Below, one piece after another: positions 2,153 through 64,000 of a DNA stretch of 64,000 bases (within the stretch, counting starts at the first letter, position 1; each line of letters opens with the position of its first letter). The translations under genes were made by a program, and so were the position numbers. The notes under the pieces are model-generated. The model saw nothing but the letters and a program-made list of their open reading frames with translations, was not told the origin of the DNA and did not search any database. The stretch is taken from assembly GCF_004010195.1 (NCBI RefSeq), contig NC_057749.1, positions 7,461,416 through 7,525,415 of the forward strand, written 5' to 3'. This DNA is from Chiloscyllium plagiosum. Lineage: Eukaryota.

Positions 2153-2372
2153 GGATTGTGTTGCTGGAAAAGCGCAGCAGGTCAGGCAGCATCCAGGGAA
2201 CAGGAGAATCGACGTTTCGGGCATTAGCCCTTCTTCAGGAATGTCCTGAAGAAGGGCTAATACCCGAAACGTCGATTCTCCTGTTCCCTAGATGCTGCCT
2301 GACCTGCTGCGCTTTTCCAGCAACACATTTCCAGCTCTGATCTCCAGCATCTGCAGACCTCACTTTCTCCTC
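2153..2372. mobile_element. Palindromic PLE terminal module (family A) with a hammerhead core on each strand
   Basis: 84-bp inverted arms 2157-2240 and 2244-2327 (2 mismatches); CTGAAGA...GAAACGTC; flanking direct repeat tcctcctgagcagattg at 2136-2152 and 2368-2384. Confidence 0.85.
2246..2273 (+). ncRNA. Minimal type-I hammerhead ribozyme motif (mirror copy at 2211-2238 on the minus strand)
   Basis: CTGAAGA-A-GGG(ctaata)CCC-GAAAC-GTC; stem III reduced to the palindrome ACGT, as in PLE-type minimal hammerheads; activity not shown. Confidence 0.65.
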
Positions 2373-3202
2373 CTGAGCAGATTGCCCATTTGAGCACTGG
2401 TGCACCTTATCCTCCATCAATTTAAATGGTAAAGTCTTCTGCATAGACATATGAGGTACCATGCCTCTGTTGGGAGCAACTGTACAGGGTCAGATATTTC
2501 TAAGAATTGAGAAGGAGGCCATTTGGCCTACTTTATATCAACTCTCCACAATGGCAAGTTAGCCCTTTCTTCCTCCCCGATCAATTTGTATTTCCTCTTC
2601 AGATGCTTATCTAATTCACTTCTGACAACCCAACATCTCCATCACACACTCTAATACATTCCAGACCCTAAACATTCACTGCATAAAAAGCTTTCTGCTG
2701 ATGTTATTGTTGGTTATTTTCAGCAATCACTTTATCTCAGTGTCCTCTGGTTCTCAAAACTTTCACAAATGGGAATAGGTCAACTGGTCATTTGGTACTT
2801 TTCTGCTGGTGGGAGTTTACCACTTGCAAACTGCCAGCCTGCATTTACCTACCTGAGAAAAGCAACTCTTTTAAATGGGAAGCCATGAAAAGCTTTAGAC
2901 AAACTCAAGTCCTTGCTCAATTACTGCCATTTTATTAAGAATGGAGCCCTGCTCTGATCCAAGATTTTACCTTAATGTCACCCTGAGCTATGTTTACACT
3001 ACATTACACACTTACTGGGCTGCATTTGAACATTTGATGCCAATACAGAACTCAAGTTCTTTCTAAAACTCTCATTCAGCCTTCAACACATTGGAGTCAG
3101 TCCATCTGTTGACTGGACAGATCCTGCCTCTAATTCTGTGCCACATGTCAAGAACTGCAGCACACACCCTTCATGTACACTACTTTGTGCACACACACAT
3201 AC

Positions 3203-3750
3203 AGTCATAGAGTCATACAGTATGGAAACAGACCCTTCGGTCCAACCAGTCCATGCCGAACATAATCCCAAACTAAACTCGTCCCACTTGCCTGCTCCTG
3301 GCCCATATCCCTCCAAACCTTTCCTGTTCAGGCACTTATCCAACTGTCTTTTAAATGTTGTAATCGTACCCACAACCACCATTTCCTATGGAAGTTCATT
3401 CCATACCCAAACCACCCTCTGTGCAAAACATTTGCCAATCATGTATTTTTAAAATCTCTCTCCTCTCACCTTAAAAATATGCCCCTAGTCTTGAAATCCT
3501 CCAAGAAAAGACAACTACCATTAACTCTATATATCCCCCTCATTATTTTATAAACTTCTATAAGGTCGCCCCTCAACCTCCTATGCTCCAGTGACTTAAG
3601 TCCCTGCCTGTCCATCCTTCCTTTTTAACTCAAAAGTTCCATACCCAGCAACATCCTGGTAAATCTCTACTGAACCCTCTCCAGCTTAATAATATCCTTC
3701 CTATAACTGGGTGACCAGAACGGGATACAGTACTTTAGAAGAGACCTCAG
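3203..3750 (-). mobile_element. CR1-clade LINE 3' fragment
   Basis: Minus-strand peptide TFKRQLDKCLNRKGLEGYGP; (ctatgact)-type tail. Confidence 0.9.
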
Positions 3751-4705
3751 CCACAACACAAACGTTGATGCCAATATAGAACACAAGTTGTTTTGAAAAC
3801 TCTCATTTAGCCTTTGGAGTCAGTCCGTCTGTTGACTAGAAAGATCCTGCCTCTAATTCAGTGCCACATGTCAAGAACTCCAGTACACACCCTTCATGTG
3901 CACAAACACAGTCATAGAGTCATACAGCACCGGACCCTTCAGTCCACGCCATAATATATTGGCATCATCTTCACAGTTACTGAGCCTTTTTGCTGTTCAG
4001 AAGCCACATATCAGGAAATTTCCAAGGTGGTGAGCTAATTAGAAGAATCGTCAAGTACGGTACAGTAGCACTCGGGTGGGTGAAAGGCTCTTGTATTTGA
4101 AGCTGCTTGGCCATTTGCAGATTTATACTCTGGCTTTGTAGATCATTATACTTCACACGGAGGGAGCCTCTGCTATCGGTGCATGCATTAGCTGATACAT
4201 ATATTGAATCTGCGTGGTTTAGAAACTGTAAACAGCATCCTTAAAAATACCAGAGGGGGGTTAATGAATTCTATATACTGCAAATTAATATTTCTTGGTA
4301 ATAAAAATGCTTGCAGCATCGGTCCATTAGTTGCCCTATAAAATATCTCACTTTAACATGTATTGTAGCTTGTACTACAAATTATCGCTTATGATAATAA
4401 CATTCAACCTTTTTATGGACTGAATTAGCATTTTTGCCTTTGTGTCTTTTTCCTTTCTTAATAATTGAGCTGCATGTGAGCAGGCTGCCACATGAATACT
4501 GAGAGTGTGGCTCTCTGATCCGTGGAGTCACAAACTGTGCGGCCATTAGGTTGAGACGTTTGGGGAGCATTGCTGTCTATAAATTTAATTTGTTTTTAAT
4601 AAAACTGAGCTTCCTGCAGCCCAGCAAGCCACGCAGTGGGCAGACTGGACTTGGAAAAGCCTAAAAGGTCACAAGTTCAATAGCCCGCCAAGCTCAGTCA
4701 ACTGG

Positions 4706-5030
4706 AGACGGCTCAGTGGTTAGCACTGCTGCCTCACAGCACCAGGGACCCGGGTCTGATTCCAGCCTCAGGCGATTGTCTGTGTGGAGTTTGCACATTC
4801 TCCCCGTGTCTGCGAGGGTTTCCTCCTGGTGCTCTGGTTTCCTCCCACATCCAAAGATGTGCAGGTTAGAGAACTGGCCATGCTAAATTGCCTATAATGT
4901 TCAGGAATGTGTAGGATAGGTGCATTAGTTGGGGGTAAATATAGGTAATAAAGTGGGGGTATGGGTGGGTTATTCTTTAGAGGGTCCATATGGACTTGTT
5001 GGGTCTGTTTCTACATTGTAGGGATTCTGT
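4706..5030 (+). mobile_element. HE1/V-SINE-like tRNA-derived SINE
   Basis: ggctcagtggttagcactgctgcctcacagc head; gtgtggagtttgcacattctcccc core; CR1-like tail. Confidence 0.9.
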
Positions 5031-5229
5031 TATCATGTTCCCAGTCATGGATCCTGCATTTTCAGTTTGGGTGAGGGAAGGTGGTGATAAGTGTGTCATT
5101 TCAAAGAAGACCGGTGTAATAAAGTTTCACATATTAACACTCACTTTCACCTCCATAACACTGACTAAGTTCTCCTGCTGGAACCCTCATTCTTGCCTTT
5201 GTTTACTGGAGACTTGATCATTCCAACAC

Positions 5230-5392
5230 ACTCCTGGCTACTCTCCTGTACTCTATATGCAAAGATGAACTAGAGGTCTTCCAAAACACTGCTGCCTGTG
5301 TCTTAACTTGTAATTACCTATCAACCCCTGCAATCACAAACTAGCCATGGCTCCTGTTCAAGCGAGGCCACATTTTAAAATTCCCATTCTTC
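5230..5392 (+). mobile_element. Degenerate L2-like LINE fragment
   Basis: Decayed QNxAARVL...WLPV...FKI-like coding signature. Confidence 0.45.
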
Positions 5393-5399
5393 AAGTCAC

Positions 5400-5697
5400 A
5401 AACAGAAGTCACACGACACCAGGTTATAGTCCAGCAGGTTTATTTGAAATCACAAGCTTTTGGAGCGCTGCTCCTTCGTCAGGGGAAGTGGATGGAAATG
5501 CAAAGGCACAGAATTTTACCTGGAATTATTTTCCAATCAGCTCTCCTCTGATAAATTCTGTACGCTTCCCACCATTCCACCTGATGAAGGAGTAGCATTC
5601 TGAAAGCTTGTGACTTCAAATAAACCTGTTGGACTGTAACTTGGTATCGTGTGACTTCTGACTTTGTTCACCCAGTCCAACACCGGCCCCTCCGCAT
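5400..5697. mobile_element. Palindromic PLE terminal module (family B)
   Basis: Inverted arms at about 5406-5484 and 5578-5660; cacCTGATGAaggag...GAAAGCTTgtg hammerhead-like core. Confidence 0.8.
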
Positions 5698-5699
5698 TA

Positions 5700-6170
5700 A
5701 TCATACAGTCATACAACAGGAAACAGATCCTTCGGTCTAACCAGTGCATGCTGACCATAATCCCAAACTAAACTAGTCCCACCTGCCTGACCTTGGCCCC
5801 TATCACTCCAAATCTTTTGTATTCATGTACTTATCCAAATGTCTTTTAAAAGTTGTAACTGTACTTGCATCCACCACTTCCTCTGGAAGTTCATTCCATG
5901 CACGGACCACTCTCTGTGGAAAAATAAAGTTGCCCCTTATGTCCTTTTTAAATCTTTCTCCTCTCATTTTAAAAATATGCCTCTTAGTTTTGAACTCCCT
6001 CACTCAAGGGAAAAGAACTTTATGACATGATTTTATATACCTTAATAATGCTTCAGTGAAAAAAGTCCCAGTCTTTTCAGTCTATTCTTCTATCTAAAAC
6101 CGTCCATTCCAGCAACACCCTGGTAAATCTTTTCTAAACTCGCTCCAGTTTAATAACATCCTTCCTATTA
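5700..6170 (-). mobile_element. CR1-clade LINE 3' fragment
   Basis: QRVVRAWNELPEEVVDASTVTTFKRHLDKYMN on the minus strand. Confidence 0.9.
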
Positions 6171-8034: not shown

Positions 8035-8148
8035 AAAAGTGAGGACTGCAGATGCTGGAAATCAGAGTCTAGATTAGAGTGGTGCTGGAAAAGCACAGCA
8101 GGTCAGCAGCACCCGAGGAGCAGGAAAATCAACGTTTCAGGCAAAAGC
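8035..8148 (-). mobile_element. PLE family A single arm
   Basis: aaagtgaggactgcagatgctgga...gctggaaaagcacagcaggtcag matches the element at 2153-2372. Confidence 0.8.
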
Positions 8149-10307: not shown

Positions 10308-10445
10308 TTTGAAGGAAAGTCACTGGACTCAAAATATTAACTGTGTTTTCTCTTCATAGATGTTACCAAACCTATTGAGTTTCTCCAGAAATGTCTGTTT
10401 TTGCTTGTTTCAGATCTCCAGCATCCATAGTTCTTTCTGTTATTT
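10308..10445 (+). mobile_element. PLE-type terminal arm (older family C)
   Basis: Ends gatctccagcatcc like family A; decayed hammerhead-like region. Confidence 0.55.
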
Positions 10446-10524
10446 ATGTCCTAGCCCACACTGAATGTATTGCCCTGTTTCTATTAAATTATGGGCCAAC
10501 CTAAATTATATATATTGTTAAATG

Positions 10525-10858
10525 GAGACAAATGCTGCAGAAGATTTTTATTTTCCACTAATCAGGACAAAGGCAAGAATGCCAAGTTCCAAATGATGAT
10601 AACAATTTCTACAACAGCAGAAAAGGGGCTGCTGATTGATCAAGGTTGAGTTGTTATCCAATCAGCACCTTTTTTTATTTACCTGGGACCCTTAGGAGCA
10701 TATAAATCACCACTCCCTTCATGTCGATGCTCGGCCAATCAGAATTGGTGCACCAGCCAATCAACATGCTTTTCTATGGTATATATTGTTGTGAATGGCT
10801 GAAATTTTGCATTTGCCTTTGTCCTGATGAGTACATAACAAAATGCTTCTATAACATG
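10525..10858. mobile_element. Old palindromic element (family E) with a decayed hammerhead-like end
   Basis: atcaggacaaaggcaa / ttgcctttgtcctgatga inverted pair; relatives at 33625-33685, 36310-36745 and about 43390-43460. Confidence 0.55.
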
Positions 10859-10860
10859 AA

Positions 10861-11056
10861 TACAAGTCGTCAAAGCGATTTGGCTGCGATTGGTGAACTG
10901 GGGAATGATTTTTTAAAATTGTAAACTTTTAGAGTGTGTGTTGGCTATAACATGATTACTTCACCAACACTTTAACTGTACTTATATTGCGCGATTTTTG
11001 TGTAGCGCAGGGTCACATAGGAACGCAACTACCAGGTAATAGCAAAACTAACTGTA
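10861..11056. mobile_element. Tigger-like MITE, inverted relative of 6556-6779
   Basis: gtgttggctataacatgattacttcaccaacactttaa is reverse-complement-similar to about 6640-6675; taca...tgta ends. Confidence 0.6.
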
Positions 11057-13385: not shown

Positions 13386-13386
13386 G

Positions 13387-14610
13387 AATCATCAAATCAT
13401 ACAGCATGAAAACAGATCCTTTGGTGCAACCAGTCCATACTGACCACGTTCCCAAACTAAACAAGTCCCACTTTCCTGCGTTTGGCCCTATCTCTCCAAA
13501 CCTTTCCCATTCATGGTCTTAGGAGAAAGTGAGGACTGCAGATGCTGGAGATCAGAGTTGAAAAATGTGTTGCTGGAAAGACACAGCAGCGCAGGCAGCA
13601 TCTGAGGAAGCAGGAGAATCGACGTTTCGGGCAAAAGCCCTTCTTCAGCCTTCATTCCTGAAGAAGGGCTTATGCCCGAAACGTCGATTCTCCTGCTCCT
13701 CGGATGCTGCCTGGCCTGCTGTGTTTTTCCAGCATTCATGGACTTAACCAAATGTCTTTTAAACGTCATAACTGTACCTGCATCCGCCACTTCCTCTGGC
13801 AGTTCATTCCACACACGAACCACCCTCTGCATAAAAAGGTTGCCCTTTTGGAAACTTTCTCCTCTCACTTTAAAAATATGCCTCCTAGTTTTGAACTCAC
13901 CTACCCAGGGGAAAAGACCCTTGGCTATTCACCTTATCAATGTCCTTCATGATTTTATAAACCTCGATAAGGGCACGCCTCAGCCTCCTACCCTCCAGTG
14001 GGAAAAGGCCCAGCCTAGCTTTATAACTCAAACCCTCCATTCCCACGAACATTCTGGTAAATCCTTTCTGAACCCTCTCCAGCTTAATAATATCCTTCCC
14101 ATAACTAGATGACCAGAACTGCACACAGTGCTCCAAGAGGCCTCAGCAATGTCCTGTACAACCTCAGCATGACTTCATAACTCCTATACTCAAAGGTCTG
14201 AGCAATGAAGTCAAGCATGCTAAACACCTTCTTAACCATCCTTTCTACCTGTGATGCAAACTTCAAAGTATTATATACCTGAACCCCTTGGTCTCATTGT
14301 TTTATAACACTATCCAGGGCACTACCATTAATTGTATAAGTCCTGTCCCTGTTTGTTTTACCAAAATGCAATACCTCATGTTTACCCAAGTTAAACTTTA
14401 TCTACCACTCCTCAGCCAATTGATCCAATTGATCAAGAACCCTTTGCCATCTGAGTTAACCTTCTTCACTGTCCACTATACCACCAATTTTGTTGTCATC
14501 CACAAACTTACTAACCATGCCTCCTGTTTACTCATCCAAATTTTTTGTATGAATCATAAACAAAAGTGGGCTCAATCCCGATCCCGTGGAACACCGCTGG
14601 TCACAGACTT
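13387..14610 (-). mobile_element. CR1 LINE, about 1 kb 3' fragment with a nested PLE module
   Basis: EHCVQFWS...LERVQKGFTRM...RLRRALIEVYKIM; decayed SKFxDD region near 14490. Confidence 0.92.
13522..13732. mobile_element. Palindromic PLE family A module with intact hammerhead cores
   Basis: TSD cattcatgg(t/a)ctta at 13508-13521 and 13733-13746; cores at 13621-13648 (-) and 13658-13685 (+). Confidence 0.88.
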
Positions 14611-19729: not shown

Positions 19730-19810
19730 AACAAAAACAGAAATTGCTGGAAAAGCTCAGCATGTCTGGCAGCACCTGTGGAGAGAAATCAGAGTTAACG
19801 TTTCGGGTCT
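19730..19810 (-). mobile_element. PLE family C arm
   Basis: aaaaacagaaattgctggaaaagctcagc...gttaacgtttcggg; also at 22520-22590 and 57340-57430. Confidence 0.65.
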
Positions 19811-20107
19811 ACGTTAAGGTTTGATTCCCTCAGAAATCAAAGCTATATTTGTGCCTCCATCCTGATTAAGTCAATGGCTGCATGACTCATTCATGTATAG
19901 CTTTCCCATCGTATTACTCTTTGAGGTCCCTAGATATTCAAAGAAGGTTCAATTAAGGGCTTCATTCTTAAACAACAACACACGATCACATCCATCTACA
20001 AGGACAAGGGTAACAAATACAAATACATGGGACACCACCACCTGCAAATTCCCTTCAATCCATCCATCATCCTGACTTATAGAGTCATAGAGCTGTACAG
20101 CACGGAA

Positions 20108-20905: not shown

Positions 20906-21535
20906 GGAAACAGATCCTTCGGTCCAATTTGTCCATGCCGACCAGATATCCTAAATTAATCAAATCCCATTTGCCAGCACTTGGCCCATATCCCTCTAAA
21001 TCCTTCTTGTTCATCTACCCATCCAGATGCCTTTTCAATGTTGTGATTATACCAGTCTCCACCACTTCCTCTGGCAGCTCATTCCATACACGCACCACCC
21101 TCTGTGTGAAAAATCTGCCCCTTAGATCCCTTTTAAATCTTTCCTCTCTCACCCTGAACCTATGCCCTCTCATTTTTGACTCACCTCTCCTGGAAAAAGC
21201 ATTTTGGCTATTCACCCTATTCATGATCCTCATGATTTTATAAACCTCTATGAGATCACCCCTCAACCTCTGATGTTCCAGGGAAAATATTCCCAGCCCC
21301 CCCTACAGCTGAAACCCTCCAGCCCTGGCAACGTCTTTGTAAATCGTTTCTGAACCCTTTCAAGTTTCAGCAGGAGATCAGATTTGAATGCAGTATTCCA
21401 AAAATATTCTAAACAATGTCCTGTACAACCATAACATGACCTCCCAACCTCTGTATTCAATGCACTGACCAACAAAGGTAAGCAGGTAAAGACCTTGTTC
21501 ACTACCCTGACTACCTGCAACTCCACTTGCAAGGG
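20906..21535 (-). mobile_element. CR1 LINE 3' fragment (extreme tail at 20078-20107)
   Basis: RGDLIEVYKIM...FFTQRVVRVWNELPEEVV. Confidence 0.92.
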
Positions 21536-21536
21536 T

Positions 21537-21660
21537 CCCAATGAAGGGTTAAGTCTGAAACGTTGACCCTCTTGATCCTCAGACACTGCCTGACTCGCTG
21601 TGCTTTTTCCACACTTTATCAACTCTGCTCTCTCCAGCAACTGCAGTCCTCACTGTCTGC
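21537..21660 (+). mobile_element. PLE-type arm related to family A
   Basis: atgaagggttaagtctgaaacgttgac...ctccagcaactgcagtcctcact. Confidence 0.65.
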
Positions 21661-21802
21661 TACTCCACTATAAAGGAACTATGAAAGAAATAAGTCACCC
21701 TTCCTTCAGCGTTGCTGGGTCAAAATCCCAGAACTCAGCATTGAGAGTGTACCTACACCAAATGGCAGCTCAAGAAGGAAACTCACCACCACCTTCTCAC
21801 CA

Positions 21803-21940
21803 CCTCATTCCTAATGAAGGGCTTTTGCCCAAAATGTTGATTTTCCTGCTCCTCAGATGCTGCCTGACCCGCTATGCTTTTCCTGCACCACTCTAATCTT
21901 GACTCTGCTCTCCAGCATCTGCAGTACACACTTTTCACCT
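21803..21940 (+). mobile_element. PLE family A arm nested in a LINE/SINE 3' tail (21690-22015)
   Basis: cattcctaatgaagggcttttgcccaaaatgttga (decayed core)...ctccagcatctgcag. Confidence 0.8.
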
Positions 21941-22430: not shown

Positions 22431-23089
22431 AAAAATCCATGTAGATTTTCCTGCAGCCTTTTGTTTGGCTGCAGTGGGTGATTATGTAGAAGACAAATAA
22501 AGCAGAGATCCCGATTAATAGCAAAAACAGAAATTGCTGGAGAAACTCAGCAGGTCTGGCAGTACCAGTGGAGAGAAAGCAGAGGTAATGATTCTTGGAA
22601 CTCCCTGATTAATAATGGAGAGCTCAAGATCAGACCCCAACATGGCAACTGGAGAATCTAAATTCAGCTTTGAAAATCGAGATCAGTAAAAGTGACCACA
22701 AAACCCAGATTATTGCAACAATCCAGCTGGTTCACACATTTCCTGAGACACACTCTGGCACACAGGCCACTCCAACCTTTCATTACGTTTGTTGGTTCTC
22801 TCCTGCCCTATGGAGTGGCTGAGTGTGGTGCTCAGTGGCGCCAACTACTGGACAGCTCATCATCACCTTCTTATCGGAATTAAGCACAAACAATGAATGG
22901 TTCCCCACCCCAAAAATGTTCCTCACTTCCTCAATGCTGTCTGACTCTCTGGGTGTTGTCCTGAAACTTTTGCACCTTTTTGAAATTTCCAACAAATGTT
23001 TTTGACTGGACTGCCTTACTTGGGTTGGCCCCAGCCCAAGAAGGAGCAAAATGTGGCTCATTTTAAATGTGGAAAGCCTAAATCTATCC

Positions 23090-23759: not shown

Positions 23760-24025
23760 CATGATTTGGATGTGCCGGTGTTGGACTGGGGTGTACAAAG
23801 TTAAAAATCACACAACACCAGATTATAGTCCAACAGGTTTATTCAGAAGCACTACCTTTTAGAGTGCTGCTCCTTCATCAGGTGGTTGCTGAGTATAAGT
23901 GGACTATAACTTTTGTGTCTTACAATCTTATACTCAGCAACCACCTGATGAAGGAGCAGCACTCTAAAAGGTAGTGCTTCAGAATAAACCTGTTGAGCTA
24001 TAATCTGGTGTTGTGTGATTTTTAA
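23760..24025. mobile_element. Palindromic PLE family B module
   Basis: Inverted arms of about 100 bp; perfect 13-bp TSD ctctgctgaaggt at 23747-23759 and 24026-24038. Confidence 0.88.
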
Positions 24026-24624
24026 CTCTGCTGAAGGTGATATTCTGCCTTGGCTGAAACTCTCAATTGATTACTGCATTAAAGAGTTAAATATTAAGGG
24101 CACTAGCTAGTAGACATTGTGGACAACCCAGCTTCTTTGGATTGAAACTCAAGCCACACCCAATTAAAATTGCTAAAACAAAAGCTTTTCTACCCTGTTC
24201 CAGGCGCTGTCTCCCATTAAGGTGCAAGCTGGTATATTTTAGAACACTCTTTTCTCCCAATCAGGGAAAACACTTCACAAGTACTTAAATATAAGCGTCC
24301 CAGTTTTTTTGACACATACAGTAAAGTGTGTGCAGGATTATCCCCTACTCACCACTCCTGTGGACAGATTTGTTAAAATTTAAATGTTTAATGTCAGCAA
24401 TGAATAGCACCTCATTTTTGGATTTGGTAAATGAAATCAAACCAGTTCAAAAATTGTAATCAGACTGTCCACAAACAATCCGAAAGGCAGCTTGGAAAAA
24501 CTCAATCCCAGAGGAATATTGCTCCAAACCAGGTATTATTAATGGATTAAAATCAGGATGGACAGTGAAAGATTGTAGCAACTTGGTGCAGGATCAGAGT
24601 ATGAGTGATCACCCATTTATGACA

Positions 24625-24815: not shown

Positions 24816-24904
24816 TGTTAAGATCAAGTGACTCCATTCTTATCTTGATTCAGGAGATCACAGACCCAAACTCCAATCCAGGAGTTAAACCACCCAATGA
24901 GTGC

Positions 24905-25003
24905 TGATTAGTGGTGCTGGAAAAGCACAGCAGGTCAGGCAGCATCCAAGGAGCAGGAATATCGACATTTCGAGCAAAAGCCCTTCATCAGGAATAATTC
25001 CTG
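24905..25003 (-). mobile_element. PLE family A arm with the start of a fold-back
   Basis: gcccttcatcaggaat-a-attcctga. Confidence 0.8.
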
Positions 25004-30700: not shown

Positions 30701-30789
30701 CCCAACTTCATTTACATTCTTTTATTAGCCAACAAACTTTTTATTTTCCCAATTATAAATACTTCTACAATCAACAAATCGTCATTCTT

Positions 30790-36412: not shown

Positions 36413-36592
36413 GCGAAAGTGAGGACTAGAGATTAGAATTGAGAGTGTGGTGCTGAAAAAGCACAGCAGGTCACGCAGTATCTGAGGAGCATGAATTCCC
36501 GATGAAGGGCTTTTGCCTGAAATGTCGATTCTCTTGCTCCTCAGATGCTGCCTGACCTGCTGTGTTTTTCCAGCACTACACTCTCAACTCTT
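36413..36592. mobile_element. Palindromic PLE family A module nested in a family E element (36310-36745)
   Basis: TSD gatacataa(c/t)aag at 36400-36412 and 36593-36605. Confidence 0.85.
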
Positions 36593-38459
36593 GATACATA
36601 ATAAGTCAACCGTGGTCGTTTGAGGCATTGCTAATGGAAAAGCAATGGGGAACTATATGCTCCTTCTGTATAATCTGTTATGATTGCATGAAATTTGGCA
36701 CTCTTGCTTGTGTCCTGAAGAGTGTGAGACGAAAAGCTTTGGTTATCTGGCTCTCTGTTCAGTTCAATGCTATCAAGAAATATGAATCCATGCCAGACTA
36801 TCTCAGAGATGCCTCAATGTGCTCAGGTGTATAAGAAGGAATGGATTGGATAGGAGCAGGCATCAATTGAAAATTTCCAATTGACTGACTGGCATTGAGC
36901 AAGCAAACCAAGGCTGAATTGAGGTAGGAAACAGCATCAATCAATTTCAATCATCGGAGAGGTTCCAGCATCTGAATAGCCTCTCGAGGAGTGCTGACTT
37001 TGCGCTTCAGGACATGGAAATCCCACTGCAAGCTGCACAAAGTGGTCACCCTATGCAAATGAGGAACAAGTCATCAACTTCCACTTAAAGCGCACATGCG
37101 GCCAACAAACCGACGGGAGTGAAGATGTTAAAGGTCATTTTCTTTTCAACTGATGCTAGAGGATGTTATATGTTATTCGTCTTTCAATGCCAGGGTACTG
37201 TACTGCATGTGAGAAATGGCTTTAGAATTCTCACCCTGGTGCTCAAATCCCTCCTTGCCATTTTTGTAGCATTCTCACAGCCTTATAAAGAACTCTCTAT
37301 CTCTCCATATCCGGCCTCCTGTACCAACCTGATTGCCATCACTCTGCTTCAGAAACCATGTTTCCAGTGCCCGAGACTCCATAGTTAACTAACTGGCTTC
37401 TCTTACAAACCCACTTCTAACATACCTCTTTGACACAGCTTTTGGTTTGCCTGTCTGCCCTCATTTCTGAAGGTCAGGCCAAGGATTGCCTTGGGATTGG
37501 TCCATGCTTACGCGCACAGCATTGTAGTGGCTTGCCACTGCCCTCTACAGGAGTTAGCTAACCAGGGAATGCCTGTCTTCCTGACTGCCACCAGTGTATA
37601 GGAAGGACCTACACTCTTATAATCTGTCTGGCTACGTTACAAACACACATTGTGCGGCCAACAAATTCAGACATAGGAGTTGAATCTGGGCTTCCTTCCC
37701 GGAGATGGGAATGCTGCCATTTGCCACTACAAGATGACCAAACACTCAAGGGGGTCCATGGTTGTCTGTCAACCTTTGTCTCATCATGCATTTCTGTGCC
37801 TTAGCCAAAAAAAAAACCCCAAAGAACACGTTGTAGTCACTATCTATCCTATCTGGAGGCTGCTATGAAGGGAGGTCACCACTACTGACAATTATTGCGC
37901 CACCTCGCCCGTGTTTCTTACCATACAGGGTAACCTGTCACAAATGTCACACAATGGGAAATCACGAACCAACACTACAGGATTCAAAAACATTCAGAAT
38001 GAAGTAGTACAGAAAGTGTGAAGACCAGCTATAATTATTCAGAGATGCACTGATAATTACAATGCACTCAGCCAGCTCTCAAACATGCTCACAAACATTC
38101 TGTAAGCTCAGTACATGGCAATGTAGATAAGCAAAGTGCGGAGTCGTAAAACTCAATGGCTGCCTAAACTACACAGTGTAAAATGTTTGCTCATTCAAAG
38201 GCTGTTTACTGCATTACAGAAAAAAAGGTTTGTCTTCAATATAAAAGCAGTGAGTGCAAAGAGCTGAAGCGACCCTCACTCTCTCATCTGCCTCAGAGGC
38301 ACCATCTTGGAAGGCTGATACTGAGTGAACAGTAGGTAATAGCGGTAATGTATAAAAGGGGAAGGACCTGCCTCAAGGTACAACGACATAATCACCTACT
38401 TTGTTCAAACATGTGGGCAGCAAGTGTAAAGCACTGCTGCACCACAGACACTGCTAACA

Positions 38460-43051: not shown

Positions 43052-43340
43052 GATTTGAAGGTGCCAGTGTTGGACTGGGCTGGACAAAGATAAAAACACA
43101 CTACACCAGGTTCTAGTCCAACAGGTTTATTTGGAAGCACGAGCTTTCGAGATGCCTTCCCTTCATCAAGTGGTTGAGTAACAGTACCATAAGACACAGA
43201 ATTTATAGCAAAAGGGTTAGTGTCCTGTCATATGGTCCTGTTCCACAGCCACTTGATGAAGGGACAGCACCTCGAAAGCTAATGCTTCTAAATAAACCTG
43301 TTGGACTATAACCTGGTGTTGTGTGGCTTTTAACTTTGTC
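43052..43340. mobile_element. Palindromic PLE family B module
   Basis: Inverted arms; TSD ccaatcag at 43044-43051 and 43340-43347. Confidence 0.85.
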
Positions 43341-43527
43341 CAATCAGATTTGAATTGCCAACCAAAGAGGAGTACAAATTATTGCTCCCTTTGAAATTTA
43401 GTTTCTGTTGCAATGTGGACAAGACAAAATGCTCCCATGCATGTCTCTTCCTTTCGCAACACTGACATTCCATACTATCCAGCATTTTGGACTCAGTATA
43501 ACTTAGTGCTGTGTGATTTCTAACTCA

Positions 43528-44747: not shown

Positions 44748-46899
44748 AATACTTAAATTACTGTCTAACAGTGGGGTCCTTGACAAAGTTAGCTTCCCTG
44801 TCACTGCCTGGGACATTCGGGTCAATTAACAATCAATTAACCATCCTGAACAGAACCAGGATAAACTAATGCAGACCTATCCCGAATACTGGGGCTCCCA
44901 CATGCATATCGTGCAGCAAGCTGTCACACAGTGAGGCTCCCCAACTTTGTTTGGATGCATTCCTGGACATTTTTTTAATATTGCCCCATGTCCCTATCCA
45001 CCTTGCTCGTGTGACTGATCACTCAACACATCTTCCTAAGTCAATTTCTATGACTCAACGCATTAGCAAAAAGTCCCACTCCCACAAAACGCTCACACAC
45101 CCCTGCCCAAACAAACTCCAACATTTTGATTGCTAATAATCAGAAATATTCAATGCAAATTAAACAAAAACACAATTTTTTAACATGTCTCTGGACACAG
45201 CTGGTACATACACTGTGCCGACTATAAAATTATAATGAGACTACAGTAACAAAGCTTCAAAATTCTCTTTGTTTTAAAGAGCTTGTAAATCAAATGTGGA
45301 GCGATCAAATCACTCGGATTTGAAATTTACATCTTTCCCTCTTAACACAAATTGACCATCCCCACAAACAATTTAGTAATGGCATTAGAATAGCACAGAG
45401 AGGCGATTCAGCCTAAATATCTCACAACAATTTCACTCCTTTCCTTTCTCTTATTCATGGAGGATTTAACAGTCACATTGGAAGAAAAGTTACTGACTCC
45501 TAAGGACGAGATAAAATGTATCATCTAGTCAATTAGGCCGCAGTGTTCAAGTGTGATCGCTTGCCAGGGCTGGCCTGTTGAGTCTCTGCAGAGTTAAGGG
45601 GTACAGCAGTTTAGTTGAAGTCTCTGGCTAATTATCACGTCCTAGTTCCTAGTCCCCACGGATTCAAATAAGCAAATGCCATCAGATTACCACGGCAACA
45701 ACATCTAGCGCCTGCTGAGATGCAGGGCAAGATCTTAACAAGATTCAATTAAAGAGAATTTCTGGATTTTTATTTCACCAGATGAGGCGATAGCTGTATA
45801 AAATGGTGGCAACTGAAACAGTGTCACAACTCACAACAGAGATGGAGCTCACTATCGATCAGAAGCTGTAATAGTTTGAATGCTATGTACTTTTCAAAAT
45901 GTGGATTTTGCTTCTTTCTTCGCTTTATGGAATTAGTCAGAAATTATTTCCGACCGATGTTTTTCAGACAATAAACACTCATTCAGACTACATTTTTTAG
46001 AATTGATTTCTATTTTGGGCAAGGCATATGGTTGCAGATACAGGACTCAAAAGGATAAATGGACATTGAGCATGCAGTCAGGTCAGACTCAAATTTTTAA
46101 ATCGAATCTTTCCTCACGAATAAGATGAGATGAAACTATATTAGATACACTTCTGAGGACTCGAGGGATCAAAGGGTATGGGGACATAGCAGAAACAGGA
46201 TACTGAGTCGGATGATCACTTATGGTCATATTGAATGGTGGGAAAGGTTTGATGGACTGAACGGCCTACTCTTCCTCCTATTTGCTATATTTCAATGAAG
46301 CTGGTAAACTGAATGGGGAAAGAAAGAACTAGCCAGTTATGCTGATGCAAAGTGATGGGTGGAAACAGCGTAAATGCTTGTGCAACTGAAACGGTCTGTT
46401 TTTGAGCATTCTAGGATCTCCATTCACAGTGATGGCAAGCACAGTATGGGAGACTGAGAGTAAACAAAACAGCGGATGCTGAAAATCGCAAATGGAAATG
46501 CAATGTCAGAGTTGCACATTATAGGAAAACCGCTGATTAGTGTGAACTGCACACCCATCAGCAAGCCTTCCTGTTTCAGAGGTTCCATCCACATAGCTGG
46601 CATAAGAACAAAATTAAATCCTGGAAAAACTTAAATATGAAGAGAGAAGAACAGAGTTAATGTTTCGAGGCGAATAACTCATTTGCAATAACACGGCTGG
46701 AAAATGGCTTTTATTTTGTTGACAAAACGAGGAGGAGCAAGTAGATCAAATGGTGATAGCATCTTGAGCAAAAGACAAAGTGGATGCTAATGGTAGTAAA
46801 GGAGTGACCTTGATGTAAATTAGGTGTTAATAATAGCTGCGGATAAAATAGTGACCATGTTCTATCTCGGGTGACCGAATCGCACGGACACCCGAGATA

Positions 46900-47825
46900 G
46901 ACTACACCTCCTCGCACCCTGCCCCCTGTAAAAACGCCATCCCATTCTCCCAATTCCTTCGACTCCGCCGCATCTGCTCCCAGGAGGACCAGTTCCAAAA
47001 ACGTACAACCCAGATGGCCTCCTTCTTCAAGGACCGCAATTTCCCCCCCGACGTGGTCGACGATGCCCTCCACCGCATCTCTTCCACTTCCCGCTCCTCC
47101 GCCCTTGAACCCCGCCCCTCCAACCGCCACCAGGACAGAACCCCACTCGTCCTCACCTACCACCCCACCAATCTCCATGTACAGCCCATCATCCGCCGTC
47201 ACTTCCGCCACCTCCAAACAGACATCAGCACCAAGGATATATTTCCCTCCCCTCCCCTATCAGCTTTCCGTAGAGACCACTCCCTCCGCGACTCCCTTGT
47301 CAGATCCACACCCCCCACCGACCCAACCACCACTCCCGGCACCTTCCCTTGCAACCGCAGGAGGTGCAACACTTGCGCCCACACCTCCCCCCTCACTCCT
47401 CTCCAAGGCCCCAAAGGAAACTTCCATATCCGCCACAGATTCACCTGCACCTCCACCCACATCATCTACTGCATCCGCTGCAGCCGGTGTGGCCTCCTCT
47501 ATATTGGGGAGACAGGCCGCCTACTTGCGGAGCGATTCAGAGAGCACCTCTGGGCCACCCGCACGAACCAACCCAACCACCCTGTAGCACAGCATTTCAA
47601 CTCCCCCTCCCACTCCACCGAGGATATGCAGGTCATTGGACTCATCCACCGCCAAACCACAACAACCCGACGGTCGGAGGAGGAGCGTCTTATCTTCCGA
47701 CTGGGAACACTCCAACCGCAGGGGATGAACTTGGACCTCACCAGTTCCTTCACCCCCCCTCCCCCCACCTTCTCTCAGCCGNNNNNNNNNNNNNCTCCAG
47801 CATCTGCAGTCCTCACTTTCTCCTC
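46900..47825 (+). mobile_element. 5'-truncated PLE (Neptune-like): RT C-terminus, Cys linker and GIY-YIG endonuclease; gap at 47782-47794; family A terminus at 47795-47825
   Basis: Open frame from 46900: DYTSSHP...IPFSQFLRLRRICS; CNRRRCNTC linker; IIYCIRCSRCGLLYIGETGRLLAERFREH; LGTLQPQGMN. Confidence 0.92.
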
Positions 47826-51240: not shown

Positions 51241-52202
51241 ACTGTTTTCCCTGATTGACTTTGTTGTGTTCAGTTTGATCAAAGGGGTAGACACTGGAAG
51301 ATATCTTAAAGGAGGAGAGAAAAGGATGGAAAGCTGAAAGTGAATTTTAGACCATTGAAATGGCAATGCATGCATGAGAATTCCAGGCACTGGTTGAGAG
51401 AAGTCCATGCAGGCCTATAGGTGGTATACCACTCTTGTCTGTGCAGCTACTCCTAACTGGAGACTGACCTATGACCTACAGCAATACAGAAACCAGCATA
51501 ACTATGAAACTAAGCGTAGATATTAATCTGATGAATTGTCCAGCTTCAAAGCATAAAAGATTAATACAGAAATTGTTGCTAACATATAATAGTAATAAAC
51601 CACTTCAGTTTCACTTCACAATGTATTGTATTACACCTGAACCAAAGACATTTAAACATCACTCCTTTCTCCAGTATACTGTGACCATAAACATATATCT
51701 CGCTATTAGTCTGGGAGTGCAATGTGGCGAAGTAATATATACAGTGGCTATGTTACTGGGCCAGTAATCCAGAGATTTGGACTCATAATCCAGGGAACTG
51801 GAAATGAAATCTAACCATGGCTAGAATTGAATCAGGTTATATGGAGAACAGATTTAGATAAGAGTTAGAATCAGTATAAATGACCATCAAGGTAGGAGAT
51901 TGCTGCAAACAAAAATGTAACTGGCTTCCTGCCATTTCTATTATGACAACAGTCCCATACCAGAATGTCTAATTCCTAACAATGAGGGAGTGACATTAGG
52001 GGCCACTCATTTGGAGAGCTGGAACAAACAGTTTGGGCTTAATGGCCTCCTTTTGAGAGTCTGTCAGTTGACAGAAGAACAGAATACGACACGACGAGAC
52101 TCTTGTGAAACCATGTCTTCTTAACATCCCCTACTCATCTGACTCGGATATAATCCAGAGCAGGGTTCAAACACATTATCAACAATGCTTTGATACAACA
52201 TC

Positions 52203-52398
52203 AGAAGTCACCAGATTATAGTCCAACAGTTTTATTTGAAATCACAAGTTCTCTGGGGGCTGCTCCTTCATCAGGTGACCTCACAAAGGGGCAGGGCTTC
52301 AAAAACTTATGATTTTAAATAAACCTGCCAAACTGTAACCGGTTTCATGTGACTTCTGACTTTGTCCACCCCAGTCCAACACTGGCACCTCCACATCA
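52203..52398. mobile_element. Palindromic PLE family B module, older
   Basis: TSD ttga(t/c)acaacatc at 52190-52202 and 52399-52411. Confidence 0.8.
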
Positions 52399-52547: not shown

Positions 52548-52665
52548 AATTATGCCTGAAACATAGATTCTTCTGCTCCTTAGATGCTGCCTGACCGGCT
52601 GTGCTTCTCCAGCACCACACTCTTTGACTCTGATCTCCAGCATCTGCAGTCCTCACTTTCTTCCT
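52548..52665 (+). mobile_element. PLE family A arm
   Basis: gatgctgcctgacc...ctctgatctccagcatctgcagtcctcactttc. Confidence 0.82.
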
Positions 52666-54734: not shown

Positions 54735-55190
54735 AGAAACTTGTGCATTTGTACAGCGCCTCTCAGCCTTTACAGCCAATGACAGACTCCTGAAGCCTTT
54801 TCTTTAAATTTGTAAGTGTTGGCAAGGCAGCAGTCATTTTGTACACAGCAGATTCCCTTCAGCAGCCATGTGATACTGACCAAGGCAGACAAGCAGGAGG
54901 CTGCAAGGACACAGCAGGCCAGGCAGCATCAGGAGGTGGAGAAGTCAACATTTTGGGTTTCAGCAAAAATCCAGATAATTAGCTTTAGAAATATCAAGCA
55001 AAGGAGAAATATTGACTAGGACACTCCATTGGCTTTTGAAATAACAGCACGGGATGTTTTAGCCTTTCTGATTGGGCAGATGGGGCTCAGATTAATATCT
55101 CAGCTGAACAGCGGCACCTCTGACAGTGTTGCACTTCCTCCTTATCTCAATGGAGAGTCAGCCTCATAGACTCCTGAAAAAGGACTTGGG
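54735..55190 (-). mobile_element. Deu-domain-like SINE with a nested PLE-type arm (54878-54960)
   Basis: tgcatttgtacagcgcct tail; ctgaacagcggcacctctgacagtg core. Confidence 0.5.
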
Positions 55191-55779: not shown

Positions 55780-55885
55780 ACCAGTTCAGAACAGTCATAT
55801 TGGACTCACGGTATTAACACTGTTGTCTCTCCACAGATGCTCCTAAACCTGCTGAGGTCCTCCAGCACTTTAGCTTTTATTCCAG
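55780..55885 (+). mobile_element. PLE family C arm
   Basis: gtcatattggactcacggtattaac...ctctccacagatgct...cctgctgag. Confidence 0.55.
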
Positions 55886-57270: not shown

Positions 57271-57444
57271 AAACAAAACTCGTTCAAGTTTGTAAAAACC
57301 ATCTTGTTTACCCACATCTCTTCAGGGAAATCTTCCATAAAAGAAAAATGCTGGAGAAACTCAGCAGGTCTGGCAGCACCTGTGGAGGGAGAAACTGGGT
57401 TACTTTTTCGAAGTTGCTCAGACTCTTCACCAGAATGATGTCCC

Positions 57445-58438: not shown

Positions 58439-58629
58439 AAAAATCAACGAGTGTAGTGCTGGAAAAGCACTTCCAGTCAGGCAGCATCCGAGGTGCAGGG
58501 GAATCGATGTTTCGAGCACAAGCTTTTCATCAGGAAACGTTGCTCCTCGGATGCTGCCTGATCTGCAGCGCTTTTCCAGCGCCACACTTTCTGACTCTGA
58601 TCTCCAGCATCTGCAGTCCTCACTTTGTC
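58439..58629. mobile_element. Palindromic PLE family A module
   Basis: Inverted arms; TSD ctcttcaa at 58431-58438 and 58630-58637. Confidence 0.82.
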
Positions 58630-58669
58630 CTCTTCAATGAAGTTGCCAGAATCCTGGAAGATAATAGGT

Positions 58670-61789: not shown

Positions 61790-61972
61790 TTAGATTTGAT
61801 TCCCTATGGAAACAGGCCCTTTGACCCAACAAGTCCACACCGCCCCTCTGAACAGCAACCCACCCAGACCCATTCCCCTCCCATATATTCACCCCTGACT
61901 CATGCACCTAACACGATGGGCAATTTAGCATGGCCAATTCATAAGGCCTGCACATTGTTTGGATTGTGAAAG
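61790..61972 (-). mobile_element. HE1/V-SINE-like 3' half
   Basis: ggaaacaggccctttgacccaacaagtccacaccg. Confidence 0.85.
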
Positions 61973-62624
61973 GAGATCCCAGCAAATCTGAATTCCTGTC
62001 CTCCCTTTCATTCACGCAAACACATAATCAATTAGCAAGTTATTGGTCTCACCTTTAATTCTTTCTTAAATCAAATGCATAGTTGACAAAAAGCAATTCA
62101 AAACCAAGTGACAATTAGCCACGATTAATAACAGGTGCAGTCTTGTTCTGGCCAGCAAATTAAAGTCAAAGTGCAGTTAATCTTAAAATAACTTCTTCTC
62201 AGGGAGCATAAGCAAAGGCTTTGCCATGGCAAGGTTGCCAAATTCAGTCACTGTCGGAGCTCCATAGTAATCTAATGGGCTTGACGTCATGCACTTTCCT
62301 TCCAGAAGAGTTGTGATGGGAGAATTGGACAGCAGCAGATTAAAGCTGTGTTCAGTCGCTGAAAGAGTAGGTTTATCTGTCTCCTGAGGTGGTCCCTAAG
62401 CTTTGAATCCATTCTCCACACCTGCTACCCTGTGCCCATCCCCCATACCACCTGCTCCAGGTTTCTATGTGGCAGCTTCATTGTAGGCAGGACTGCCTCA
62501 GGTACTGGTCCTTGTGAAGAAAAGGTCAACGTGACCAGCAGAAACCAGGAAAGGGCTTCACTCAGAAAATATACTTAATTATGCCTCACAGGTAGGTGAA
62601 GGCTTTGTTATTCTAGAAGCTAAA

Positions 62625-63245
62625 AGGCTTGCATTTGTATGGCGTCCTTTCCCTACCATAGGTCACTTTAAAGTACTTCACAACTGAAGAAACATCCCTT
62701 GCAGAATAATCCCTGTTGCACGCAAAATCGGTAGCTAATTTGTACACAGCAGGATCCCAGACACAGTAAGTGCGACAAGAATGGATTATCTATTTTAAGG
62801 ATTTTAAGGAGTACACATTAATTTGAATGTCTGAAGATAGCACCCCTTTTCTTCTGCTGATATAGAGCCCTAGTATGTGTTATGGCCAGTTGAGAATGGA
62901 ATTAACTGTCAGAGGAAGTGGTGGAGGCTGGTACAATTACAACATTGAAAAGGCATCTGGATGGATACATGAACAGTAAGTGTTCAGAGGGAGATGGGCC
63001 AAATGCTGGCAAATGGGACTAGATCAACATGGACAAGTTAGACAGAAGGGTCTGTTTTTGTGTTGTACATCTCTATGACTCTATGAGAGACAGCTGACAT
63101 GGCCTTGAATGTAAAGCCTTATGGGAGAATAGTTCTTCTGTCAGTACAGCACTCCCCCCACTGCAGTGCCAGCCAAATCTTAAAATCTCTGGAGTGGGAC
63201 ATGAATCAATGATTTTATGTCTCAAAGGCAAAAGAGCTACTGGCA
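62625..63245 (-). mobile_element. Deu-domain-like SINE split by a short plus-strand CR1 tail (62897-63086)
   Basis: cttgcatttgtatggcg tail; tctctggagtgggacatgaatc head; insert reads EEVVEAGTITTLKRHLD. Confidence 0.55.
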
Positions 63246-63513
63246 ACAGGATTCAACATCCCTTACACATTAAAGAGCTTTTTGCTTTCTATTCAAAGGT
63301 GGTGAGTATCATTTTTCTTCCAATGCTTCTGCAAAGCATCTTTCAACATAAAATTTAGCACAGTATTGGAACTCTGCAAAGGTACATAGTTACATATGAC
63401 ATGTACTGTGTTAAGCATCTGTGATACCTTTGCATTGCAATGATGCAATGGAGTAGGGCACGTAGAAACATTAACGTGTCACCAAGAAGCTCCTCTGCAC
63501 ATTATTACCAAAG

Positions 63514-63676
63514 TCAGAAATCACACGACACCAAGTTACAGTCCAACGTGGACATCACCCGACAAAGGGGCAGTGCTCCGAAAGCTTGTGAATTCAAATA
63601 AACCTGCCGGATTATTACCTGGTGTTGTGTGACCTCTGACTTTGTCCACCCCAGTCCAACACCAGCAGCTCCACAT
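63514..63676. mobile_element. PLE family B module with a short inverted arm
   Basis: TSD cattatt(a/g)ccaaag at 63500-63513 and 63677-63690; gctccGAAAGCTTgtg half-core. Confidence 0.8.
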
Positions 63677-64000
63677 CATTATTGCCAAAGGCAACAACAT
63701 GCTCAAAATAAACAGATTAGCCCCAGGAAGGAAAAAATAAAGCAAAAAAAGAACAAAGAGAGAGGCGGCGGGGGAAAATAAAAGTTCCGCTTTTATTTTC
63801 CGCAGGCAGTCAATGAGTATTTCCTTTTGAATTGTAGCAATCTTCTCATGCAAGAAACGAGCATCTAACTTGTGCACAGCAAGATCCCACAATGGGAGAG
63901 GGGTACATTACCACATTGTTCCTTTCTGATAATCCTGATGAGAGATAAAGTGTGGGTCAGGATACGTTCCCTGGTCTTCTTGCACTGAGAGAGATCCCCT

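What the first reader, a model, noticed from the sequence alone, without database searches (positions are those of the whole stretch)
2153..63690. Window-wide population of several ribozyme-tipped PLE mini-element families with ~13-bp TSDs
Seen: about 20 short modules in at least four sequence families. Family A has GAAACGTC, B has GAAAGCT(A/T), C is GAAACGTT-like, and E has CTGAAGAgtgtgagacGAAAAGCTT near 36715. Their sequences differ but all place a palindrome (ACGT or AGCT) directly after GAAA. Seven have readable TSDs of 8-17 bp, mostly 13-14 (at 2136, 13508, 23747, 36400, 43044, 52190, 63500), and 58431 has an 8-bp one. Inference: the shared architecture in divergent sequences points to selection on RNA structure. 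They are either extremely 5'-truncated/inverted PLE insertions or a self-propagating non-autonomous class resembling retrozymes.
Basis: partly seen in the sequence, partly recalled or inferred. Interest (0 to 1): 0.75.

Follow-up and report, generated by a model that had tools for sequence, protein, structure and literature searches.

The report
Penelope retroelement stubs in shark-like DNA
The short modules are real but of a known kind: stub-sized insertions of the ribozyme-bearing end of Penelope-like jumping genes, often as mirror-image pairs whose two halves seem to be copied separately at each landing and whose RNA hairpins show signs of A-to-I editing.

Summary
Real and undercounted: 37 arms in 26 insertions (about 6% of the window), with all 8 named target-site duplications confirmed. 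Only 6 of 37 arms keep an intact hammerhead core plus palindrome. [quoted passage not shown] A self-propagating retrozyme-like class is not supported: the centre differs in all 9 A/B palindromes, no high-depth shared centre appears among 42,000-67,000 matching contigs per species, there are no tandem units, and no RNA ends pile at the cut site. Less ordinary: all 9 window and 7 metagenome palindromes pair one full-tail arm with one arm 35-50 nt shorter, and in 7 of these 16 each arm holds family sequence the other lacks. That favours priming from both cut DNA strands over simple snap-back. One RNA run shows strand-specific A>G excess. The scan has reported this system many times in this genome.

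The parts
2151..2371 (.). Family A palindrome: short arm 2151-2240 (-), full-tail arm 2244-2371 (+); both cores intact; 13-bp TSD (2140-2152 / 2372-2384)
5398..5700 (.). Family B palindrome: short arm (-), full arm (+, core intact at 5581); no TSD found
8035..8148 (-). Family A single full-tail arm starting inside stem II
10325..10434 (+). Old C-type single arm
10517..10873 (.). Old family E inverted pair, cores decayed
13521..13735 (.). Family A palindrome: full-tail arm (-) starting at the core, short arm (+) with 6-10 more upstream bases; TSD 13-14 bp (13508 / 13733)
19732..19811 (-). C-type single arm
21530..21661 (+). A-related single full-tail arm with a 5-bp stem I match, core decayed; about 10-bp TSD
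21800..21936 (+). Family A single full-tail arm, about 11 upstream bases; possible 10-bp TSD (score 7, not significant)
22521..22603 (-). C-type single arm; 11-bp TSD
23761..24030 (.). Family B palindrome: full-tail arm (-), short arm (+) with 27 extra upstream bases; both arms share the same core-breaking changes; TSD 13-14 bp
24902..24998 (-). Family A short-type arm, partner nearly absent
30587..30708 (-). C-type single arm
33599..33700 (+). Family E single arm, decayed
36287..36779 (.). Old family E inverted pair (36287-36383 -, 36677-36779 +; intact core at 36715), split by the A insertion below
36412..36592 (.). Family A palindrome: full-tail arm (-) stops about 8 nt short of the cut site, short arm (+) carries the whole (decayed) hammerhead; 13-bp TSD
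43052..43342 (.). Family B palindrome: full-tail arm (-) reaches about 58 nt upstream of the core, short arm about 29; TSD 8-9 bp, 15-16 with overlap
43496..43526 (+). Weak family B fragment (E 0.011)
46897..47775 (+). 5'-truncated PLE ORF fragment: post-RT region, CX4CX2C linker, GIY-YIG endonuclease
47795..47824 (+). Family A tail end directly behind a 13-N gap after the ORF fragment
52196..52398 (.). Old family B palindrome, near-symmetric centre; 13-bp TSD
52549..52661 (+). Family A single full-tail arm starting in loop II
54886..54964 (-). A/C-related (D) single arm
55813..55876 (+). Old C-type single arm
57337..57409 (-). C-type single arm
58443..58631 (.). Family A palindrome: short arm (-) carries the hammerhead, full-tail arm (+) starts about 8 nt after the cut site; 8-bp TSD
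63509..63679 (.). Family B palindrome: 39-nt short arm (-), full arm (+); TSD 10 bp, about 14 with overlap

Best explanation
The modules are dead-on-arrival, very short insertions made by endonuclease-bearing PLEs (Neptune/Nematis type for group A/C/D) from the pLTR part of their RNA. Shown here: each arm runs from near the minimal hammerhead to one of two fixed 3' ends about 40 nt apart; inserts carry TSDs of about 13-14 bp; palindromes are head-to-head, with one full-tail and one short arm and a different centre each time. Inferred: the enzyme cuts both target strands about 13-14 nt apart; one 3' end primes cDNA at the outer RNA start site and the other at the inner site; both cDNAs end after about 40-175 nt, mostly near the hammerhead (RNA 5' end or stall); the two cDNA ends are joined directly or through a few matching bases. 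The template is uncleaved RNA. The inserted ribozymes are passengers that decay; when transcribed inside host RNAs the palindromes form long hairpins that are probably edited by ADAR. My odds: about 0.9 for PLE stubs built anew per insertion, about 0.55 for two-ended priming as the route to the inverted arm.
For: PLE link: ORF fragment with GIY-YIG (E 1.4e-4) and 61 homologs, most with RT domains, followed across a gap by the A tail; 37 of 121 metagenome loci with the same core hit these PLE proteins, mostly as the ORF C-terminus ending about 70-240 nt upstream. Two 3' ends: loose ends at 2370-2372 and 2327 in three DNA runs; B short arms end at one place in 5 of 5; metagenome 3' ends cluster near +55-65 and +105-115. 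This matches the 30-40-bp tail (PMC8557442, PMC3846280) and the two RT start sites with cleavage and extension of both strands in vitro (PMC11167929). One full plus one short arm in 9 of 9 window A/B palindromes and 7 of 7 metagenome palindromes with family references. Each arm holds family sequence the other lacks in 4 of 9 window cases (13521, 23761, 36412, 58443) and 3 of 7 metagenome cases (L080, L091, L110). Sister arms are each other's closest match in 4 of 9 (97, 95, 93, 88%). Most arms that reach the ribozyme run through the cut site; no place where many RNA molecules begin or end.
Against: The ORF-to-A-tail link crosses a 13-N gap; no ORF is tied to B or E. In 2 of 9 window and 1 of 7 metagenome palindromes the short arm is wholly contained in the full arm, and 3 + 3 are near-symmetric (L042, L049, L070 centre on short natural palindromes); these fit snap-back equally well. 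The bias for the short arm to reach further upstream is not significant (looser tally 9 of 13, p = 0.13). A self-primed hairpin trimmed afterwards could also give arms with unique parts. The 2327 end coincides with subfamily differences that clip alignments. B arms reach 2-58 nt upstream, so there is no single sharp 5' boundary. No empty site was seen.
Confidence: 0.72

Rival explanations
1. Same PLE origin, but the inverted arm arises by self-priming (snap-back of one cDNA, or of an antisense template as proposed in PMC3846280), with the tail left by later endonuclease trimming (PMC8557442).
For: Sister arms are often closest relatives. Symmetric centres on short natural palindromes in L042, L049, L070. 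Short arm contained in the full arm at 43052, 63509 and L011.
Against: 7 of 16 palindromes have family sequence unique to each arm, which snap-back of a single target-primed cDNA cannot give without extra steps. In vitro both strands are extended from two start sites that bracket the tail (PMC11167929).
Confidence: 0.3
2. A self-propagating non-autonomous class (retrozyme-like or MITE-like): the palindromic unit is itself transcribed, cut by its hammerheads and re-inserted.
For: Very high abundance (58,174, 42,279 and 67,317 contigs laid on one arm) against one ORF fragment in the window. Both arms at 23761 share core-breaking changes, so a decayed copy may have served as template. A tail-to-tail joint 2330/2371 recurs in 22, 22 and 11 contigs; a few joints reach depth 334-431 in one run.
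Against: All 9 A/B centres differ. The best-supported joints listed reach depth 431 at most against millions on the arm, and centre-type joints occur in 1-3 contigs (21 + 61 rows not shown, contigs in repeats are short). No tandem units. Ends do not sit at the cut site. The hairpin buries the cores (-178.6 kcal/mol, z -24.6). 97% of laid RNA reads run on into unlike sequence.
Confidence: 0.06
3. Single arms are short SINE-like transcripts from solo pLTR promoters, mobilised in trans: the stubs feed a population of small template RNAs that start just upstream of the hammerhead, while the inverted arm is still built anew at each landing.
For: Shared sequence upstream of family A fades within about 6-12 nt of the reference edge at the core (loose ends). 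PLEs carry an internal promoter (PMC2377424, abstract) and pLTRs act in cis for trans-mobilisation (PMC3846280). Shared decay in both arms at 23761. Reads of one orientation outnumber the other about 2.7 to 1 on the tail.
Against: No start-site data; B arms extend past a TATA-like word (by eye); run-off from the 5' pLTR of full-length RNA predicts the same boundary; arm homogenisation after insertion could explain 23761.
Confidence: 0.25

Closest known systems
Complex insertions of EN+ Penelope-like elements: inverted 5'-truncated pLTR, optional tail, TSD (Arkhipova et al. 2013, PMC3846280; Craig et al. 2021, PMC8557442; passages read)
   Same: Head-to-head inverted pLTR, 30-40-bp tail on one end only, TSD, strong 5' truncation, nesting into other copies.
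   Different: Here nearly all inserts are pLTR-only (80-300 bp; 1 ORF fragment against 25 stubs), TSDs are about 13-14 bp rather than the 8-10 bp cited for rotifer copies, and density is one per about 2.5 kb.
Minimal hammerheads (min-HHR) of metazoan PLEs (Cervera and de la Pena 2014, PMC4209133; parts 1-2 of 4 read)
   Same: Type I core, bulged base before stem II, G10.1-C11.1, palindrome at 15-16; that paper also reports dual motifs 100-700 bp apart on opposite strands and mostly single motifs from truncated PLEs.
   Different: Sharks are not named in the parts read. Stem I is short here (2-3 contiguous pairs in A and B against 4-5 described).
Poseidon element of Anolis (PAc) in vitro (Frangieh et al. 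2024, PMC11167929; parts 1-2 of 4 read)
   Same: Two internal RT start sites that bracket the tail; both DNA strands cut and extended; uncleaved RNA is the template; ribozyme mutants still insert; AT-rich flanks.
   Different: The window's ORF has the CX2-5CxxC linker of Neptune/Nematis, which Poseidon lacks (PMC8557442). That paper leaves second-strand synthesis open and, in the parts read, does not treat palindromic stubs.
Non-LTR retrozymes (Cervera and de la Pena 2020, PMC7229834, passages; Li et al. 2026, 10.64898/2026.07.22.740005, part 1 of 5 and passages)
   Same: Small, non-coding, type I hammerhead, PLE-related, reported in one chondrichthyan genome.
   Different: Retrozymes are head-to-tail tandem units cut into monomers and circles; here units are dispersed, head-to-head or single, and their ends are not the cut site.
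Hyper-edited repeats (Porath et al. 2017, PMC5625713; passages)
   Same: Self-folding palindromic repeats (frog Harbinger) and lizard Penelope are heavily A-to-I edited; elephant shark has a strong signal.
   Different: The passages seen do not assign shark editing to PLE palindromes.

Membership tests
EN+ Penelope-like element (Neptune/Nematis type) | Single ORF with RT and C-terminal GIY-YIG endonuclease attached to the pLTR | tested here: inconclusive
   GIY-YIG fragment (22.5 bits against cut-off 22.6) with RT-bearing homologs; joined to the A tail only across a 13-N gap; 37 of 121 same-core metagenome loci hit these proteins; none found for B or E
EN+ Penelope-like element (Neptune/Nematis type) | CX2-5CxxC linker before GIY-YIG | tested here: met
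   CX4CX2C in the ORF translation; definition from PMC8557442. No tree was built to separate Neptune from Nematis
EN+ Penelope-like element (Neptune/Nematis type) | Hammerhead motif in the pLTR | tested here: met
EN+ Penelope-like element (Neptune/Nematis type) | Inverted 5'-truncated copy adjoining the 5' end (head-to-head) | tested here: met
   9 A/B and 2 E inverted pairs; 21 of 121 metagenome loci
EN+ Penelope-like element (Neptune/Nematis type) | 30-40-bp tail at one end only | tested here: met
   9 of 9 A/B palindromes; two 3' ends in three DNA runs
EN+ Penelope-like element (Neptune/Nematis type) | Target-site duplication | tested here: met
   10 of 22 tested ends after dropping one internal match; null 11 of 300
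Minimal hammerhead (min-HHR) | CUGANGA and GAAA core, palindrome at 15-16, NUH, stem II | tested here: met
   Intact in 6 of 37 arms; decayed or cut off in 31
Minimal hammerhead (min-HHR) | Stem I with covariation | tested here: inconclusive
   Clear in metagenome relatives (48, 50, 43, 30 of 67 against 35, 25, 21, 18 shuffled; slid controls 59-73 against 145; relatedness not removed). In the window's families only 0-3 contiguous pairs in intact arms, 5 in one decayed copy
Minimal hammerhead (min-HHR) | Self-cleavage as a dimer | not testable with these tools
   Folding energies uninformative; no RNA end pile-up in one poly(A) run of which about 2% was read
Non-LTR retrozyme | Head-to-tail tandem units each with a hammerhead | tested here: not met
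   0 of 12 tandem-repeat rows overlap a module
Non-LTR retrozyme | Unit bounded by ribozyme cut sites | tested here: not met
   3' ends lie about 55-63 and 98 nt past the cut site, 5' ends mostly upstream of it
Non-LTR retrozyme | Abundant circular and linear monomer RNA | not testable with these tools
   Only a poly(A) single-cell run was laid
Self-propagating palindromic element (MITE-like) | Fixed centre and matching ends shared by dispersed copies | tested here: not met
   9 of 9 centres differ and ends are always unequal; no high-depth centre listed

The most novel reading that the evidence does not exclude
The stubs are a fossil record of an unresolved step of PLE transposition: a dimeric RT-endonuclease primes both strands of a 13-14-nt staggered cut on one uncleaved RNA, always using the outer start site on one side and the inner site on the other, and the two cDNAs run off near the hammerhead and are joined. 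This would explain tail, inverted pLTR and TSD in one scheme across animals. In this shark-like genome the resulting self-contained hairpins would be a major ADAR substrate, playing the part that inverted Alu pairs play in primates (Alu comparison recalled).
Probability: 0.4. Interest if true: 0.58.

Novelty: new member of a known kind. Interest (0 to 1): 0.3.

Why it matters
As a class this is known, and the scan has met it repeatedly. Its value is as data. PLE second-strand synthesis and the origin of inverted pLTRs are open (PMC8557442, PMC11167929), and a genome with a stub every few kilobases offers a very large set of natural reaction products in which two-ended priming and self-priming make opposite, countable predictions. 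If the editing signal holds, these stubs are also a large source of double-stranded RNA in this animal. In practice such hairpins can be mistaken for MITEs or miRNA precursors (Rfam gave weak miRNA matches).

Tried and rejected
No whole genome was held, so genome-wide counts rest on one read lay. Viral contigs: 0 matches for the family A pattern and no relative of the ORF. Rfam has no matching hammerhead model; the miRNA hits are below cut-off and reflect hairpins. Run search: no RNA holder listed; an RNA run added by species label was laid instead. Dimer folding energies do not separate window motifs from metagenome motifs (gap to the minimum-energy fold 5-17 kcal/mol against medians of 7-23; a first try stopped on a script error), so they say nothing on activity. 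A candidate C arm at 46610 was dropped because the profiles did not find it. The 8-bp repeat around 8036 was dropped as element-internal. Summed contig depth was not used as copy number. DNA-versus-RNA variant frequencies are not like for like (contigs against raw reads, different individuals), so the editing argument leans on strand asymmetry inside the RNA run. Ribozyme cleavage as the cause of the 5' ends was rejected because most arms run through the cut site. A TATA-like word about 40 nt upstream of the B core was considered as promoter; 3-4 of 10 B arms include it, so it does not mark a hard boundary. Of the metagenome palindromes, 21 were found, 15 were inspected, and 7 had family references fixing both ends; L007, L019, L030, L041, L043, L073, L076 and L105 were left out of the count. 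Look-ups of earlier findings by ORF sequence and for editing returned nothing. No supplementary files were read; they may hold shark min-HHR lists or repeat-level editing tables.

Full report
Setting. The window is repeat-rich animal DNA (about 44% GC). The best named homologs of its one PLE ORF fragment are from Stegostoma tigrinum (62%) and Chiloscyllium punctatum (73-75% over part), so the host is shark-like. No whole genome was held.

Observation. Motif scans, BLAST and profiles built from window copies give 37 arms: 21 of a related A/C/D group, 11 of B and 5 of E, with none in the reversed window. They form 25 short insertions plus one tail behind an ORF fragment and cover about 6% of the window. 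A hammerhead-like pattern has 5 matches against 0.00 in shuffles. Five are 13-14 bp; short overlaps between target and element ends blur the others. Only 6 of 37 arms keep CUGANGA, GAAA and the palindrome.

PLE identity. 46897-47775 encodes the C-terminal third of a PLE protein with a CX4CX2C linker and GIY-YIG domain; that linker marks Neptune and Nematis (PMC8557442, passages). The last 30 bases of family A follow it across a 13-N gap, which is suggestive only. 37 of 121 hit the homologs of the window's ORF, mostly as the C-terminus ending about 70-240 nt upstream of the core. No other PLE coding sequence lies in the window, and no ORF was tied to B or E.

Ribozyme. In the 67 non-redundant metagenome flank pairs, stem I positions 1-4, which the pattern did not fix, pair in 48, 50, 43 and 30 cases against 35, 25, 21 and 18 after shuffling; slid registers give 59-73 against 145; stem II pairs 3-4 also exceed shuffles. 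Relatedness was not removed. In the window stem I is 0-3 contiguous pairs in intact arms. This is the minimal, dimer-type hammerhead of PMC4209133 (parts 1-2 of 4 read), which also mentions dual motifs on opposite strands 100-700 bp apart. Activity was not testable: folding energies were uninformative. The palindrome at 2151 folds into one 90-bp hairpin (z -24.6) that buries both cores.

Anatomy. Every arm ends at one of two 3' positions. All 9 A/B palindromes are head-to-head with one full-tail arm and one arm about 35-50 nt shorter; 0.5^9 = 0.002 if each side chose freely. Laying three DNA runs on arm 2243-2440 gave 58,174, 42,279 and 67,317 contigs, with loose ends at 2370-2372 and at 2327 followed by long, heterogeneous AT-rich sequence; the 2327 position is partly set by subfamily differences. 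Among metagenome loci 21 of 121 have an inverted partner arm, several with 11-15-bp duplications (L007, L019, L043, L049, L073, L110), and shared 3' extents cluster near +55-65 and +105-115 (85 loci). Of 15 inspected, 7 had family references for both ends, and all 7 are full/short pairs. This is the inverted pLTR plus tail of PMC3846280 and PMC8557442 (passages), and matches the two RT start sites of PMC11167929 (parts 1-2 of 4).

Own lineage or built anew. The 9 centres all differ. In the lay, centre-type joints occur in 1-3 contigs each, and the deepest listed joint reaches 431 against millions on the arm; 21 + 61 weaker rows were not shown, and contigs in repeats are short, so small shared sets can be missed. 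No module lies in a tandem array (0 of 12 rows). In the RNA run both orientations are read, 97% of laid reads continue into unlike sequence, and no place with many ends is listed (poly(A) single-cell library, about 2% read). The retrozyme definition (PMC7229834, passages; bioRxiv 10.64898/2026.07.22.740005, part 1 of 5 and passages) is not met. Against my reading: a tail-to-tail joint 2330/2371 recurs in 22, 22 and 11 contigs, which I read as insertion into an existing tail or local multimers, untested; and both arms at 23761 share changes that break the core (23 shared non-majority columns of 104, 0 and 3 private), so either a decayed copy served as template or the arms were homogenised later.

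How the inverted arm is made. PMC3846280 proposes self-priming. A single target-primed cDNA that folds back can only give a second arm contained in the first. Yet at 13521, 23761, 36412 and 58443, and in L080, L091 and L110, the full arm has the tail while the short arm has 6-40 upstream bases, twice the whole hammerhead, that the full arm lacks: 7 of 16. In 3 of 16 (43052, 63509, L011) the short arm is contained in the full arm, and 6 of 16 are near-symmetric, three of them centred on short natural palindromes. With the in vitro finding that both strands are cut and extended, the simplest scheme is priming from both ends of a 13-14-nt staggered cut, one at each RNA start site, then joining of the two cDNAs. 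Sister arms are each other's closest match in 4 of 9, as expected for one template. The prediction that the inner-primed arm leads is not significant (9 of 13 on a looser tally, p = 0.13). A self-primed hairpin trimmed afterwards is not excluded. Searches for Penelope with twin priming (3 papers listed, none on this by title or abstract start) and for recent PLE mechanism papers showed no such scheme; the library is incomplete.

Why so short. All window arms start between about 58 nt upstream and 55 nt downstream of the core (by eye), and shared sequence upstream of family A fades within about 6-12 nt. Most arms that reach the ribozyme cross the cut site, so cleavage does not set the boundary, in line with PMC11167929. 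Run-off at an RNA 5' end inside the pLTR (internal promoter: PMC2377424, abstract only; PMC6765202, passages) or stalling at the structure remain untested. In metagenome loci 37 of 74 share 46 nt or less upstream and the rest up to 472, so truncation is less extreme there.

Editing signal. Variable places of type A>G and T>C number 18 and 18 in the RNA run against 6-10 and 7-11 in the DNA runs, while C>T and G>A are unchanged. Among the 40 of 126 rows shown (39 with enough depth), all 7 A>G rows lean to one read orientation (p = 5e-5 against 28 other rows) and the 4 T>C rows to the other (p = 0.02), one at 17.3% against 0.6%. This is the pattern of A-to-I editing. The RNA is from another individual, rows are not independent, a few expressed loci could dominate, and one A>G place (2340) lies in the usually unpaired tail. 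PMC5625713 (passages) reports heavy editing of lizard Penelope and in elephant shark; a search for Penelope with A-to-I and hairpin found 0 papers.

Literature on sharks. Two searches listed 2 papers each, none describing these stubs by title or abstract start. Earlier notes of this scan on the same genome reach the same class assignment; they are unchecked and not counted as support.

Verdict. New member of a known kind, interest 0.3. The strict full/short pairing and the editing signature are the parts worth following.

Noticed in passing
window 2243-2371, run X21: Strand-specific A>G and T>C excess in RNA reads on family A, as expected from A-to-I editing of hairpins.
   Followed up: partly
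window 2330/2371, runs X1, X10, X16: Rare recurring tail-to-tail joint (22, 22, 11 contigs); also direct joints 2244/2335-2336 in 1-2 contigs per run, which look like a tail-only arm joined to a hammerhead arm.
   Followed up: no
window 25432-26691: 419-codon open frame holding an array of 21-bp units (25874-26601) between inverted repeats 25774-25821 / 26655-26702; no Pfam match.
   Followed up: no
window 17007-18003: About 1-kb element with 166-nt, 99% identical terminal inverted repeats; looks like a young non-autonomous DNA transposon.
   Followed up: no
window 46860-46900: 13-bp inverted repeat with a 15-nt loop right at the 5' truncation point of the PLE ORF fragment.
   Followed up: no
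window 36287-36779: A family A palindrome sits inside an older family E inverted pair.
   Followed up: partly
window 1951-2427 and 13092-14133: The young A palindromes at 2151 and 13521 each lie between the arms of older, larger inverted repeats.
   Followed up: no
window 20296-20629: 167-bp tandem duplication at 98% identity overlapping an RT-coding LINE-like fragment.
   Followed up: no
window 8946-8970: Isolated CUGANGA...GAAA match that belongs to none of the families.
   Followed up: no
L049 and L070: Two copies of one metagenome family invert at about the same place, 16-17 nt upstream of the core, on a short natural palindrome: a preferred junction site.
   Followed up: partly
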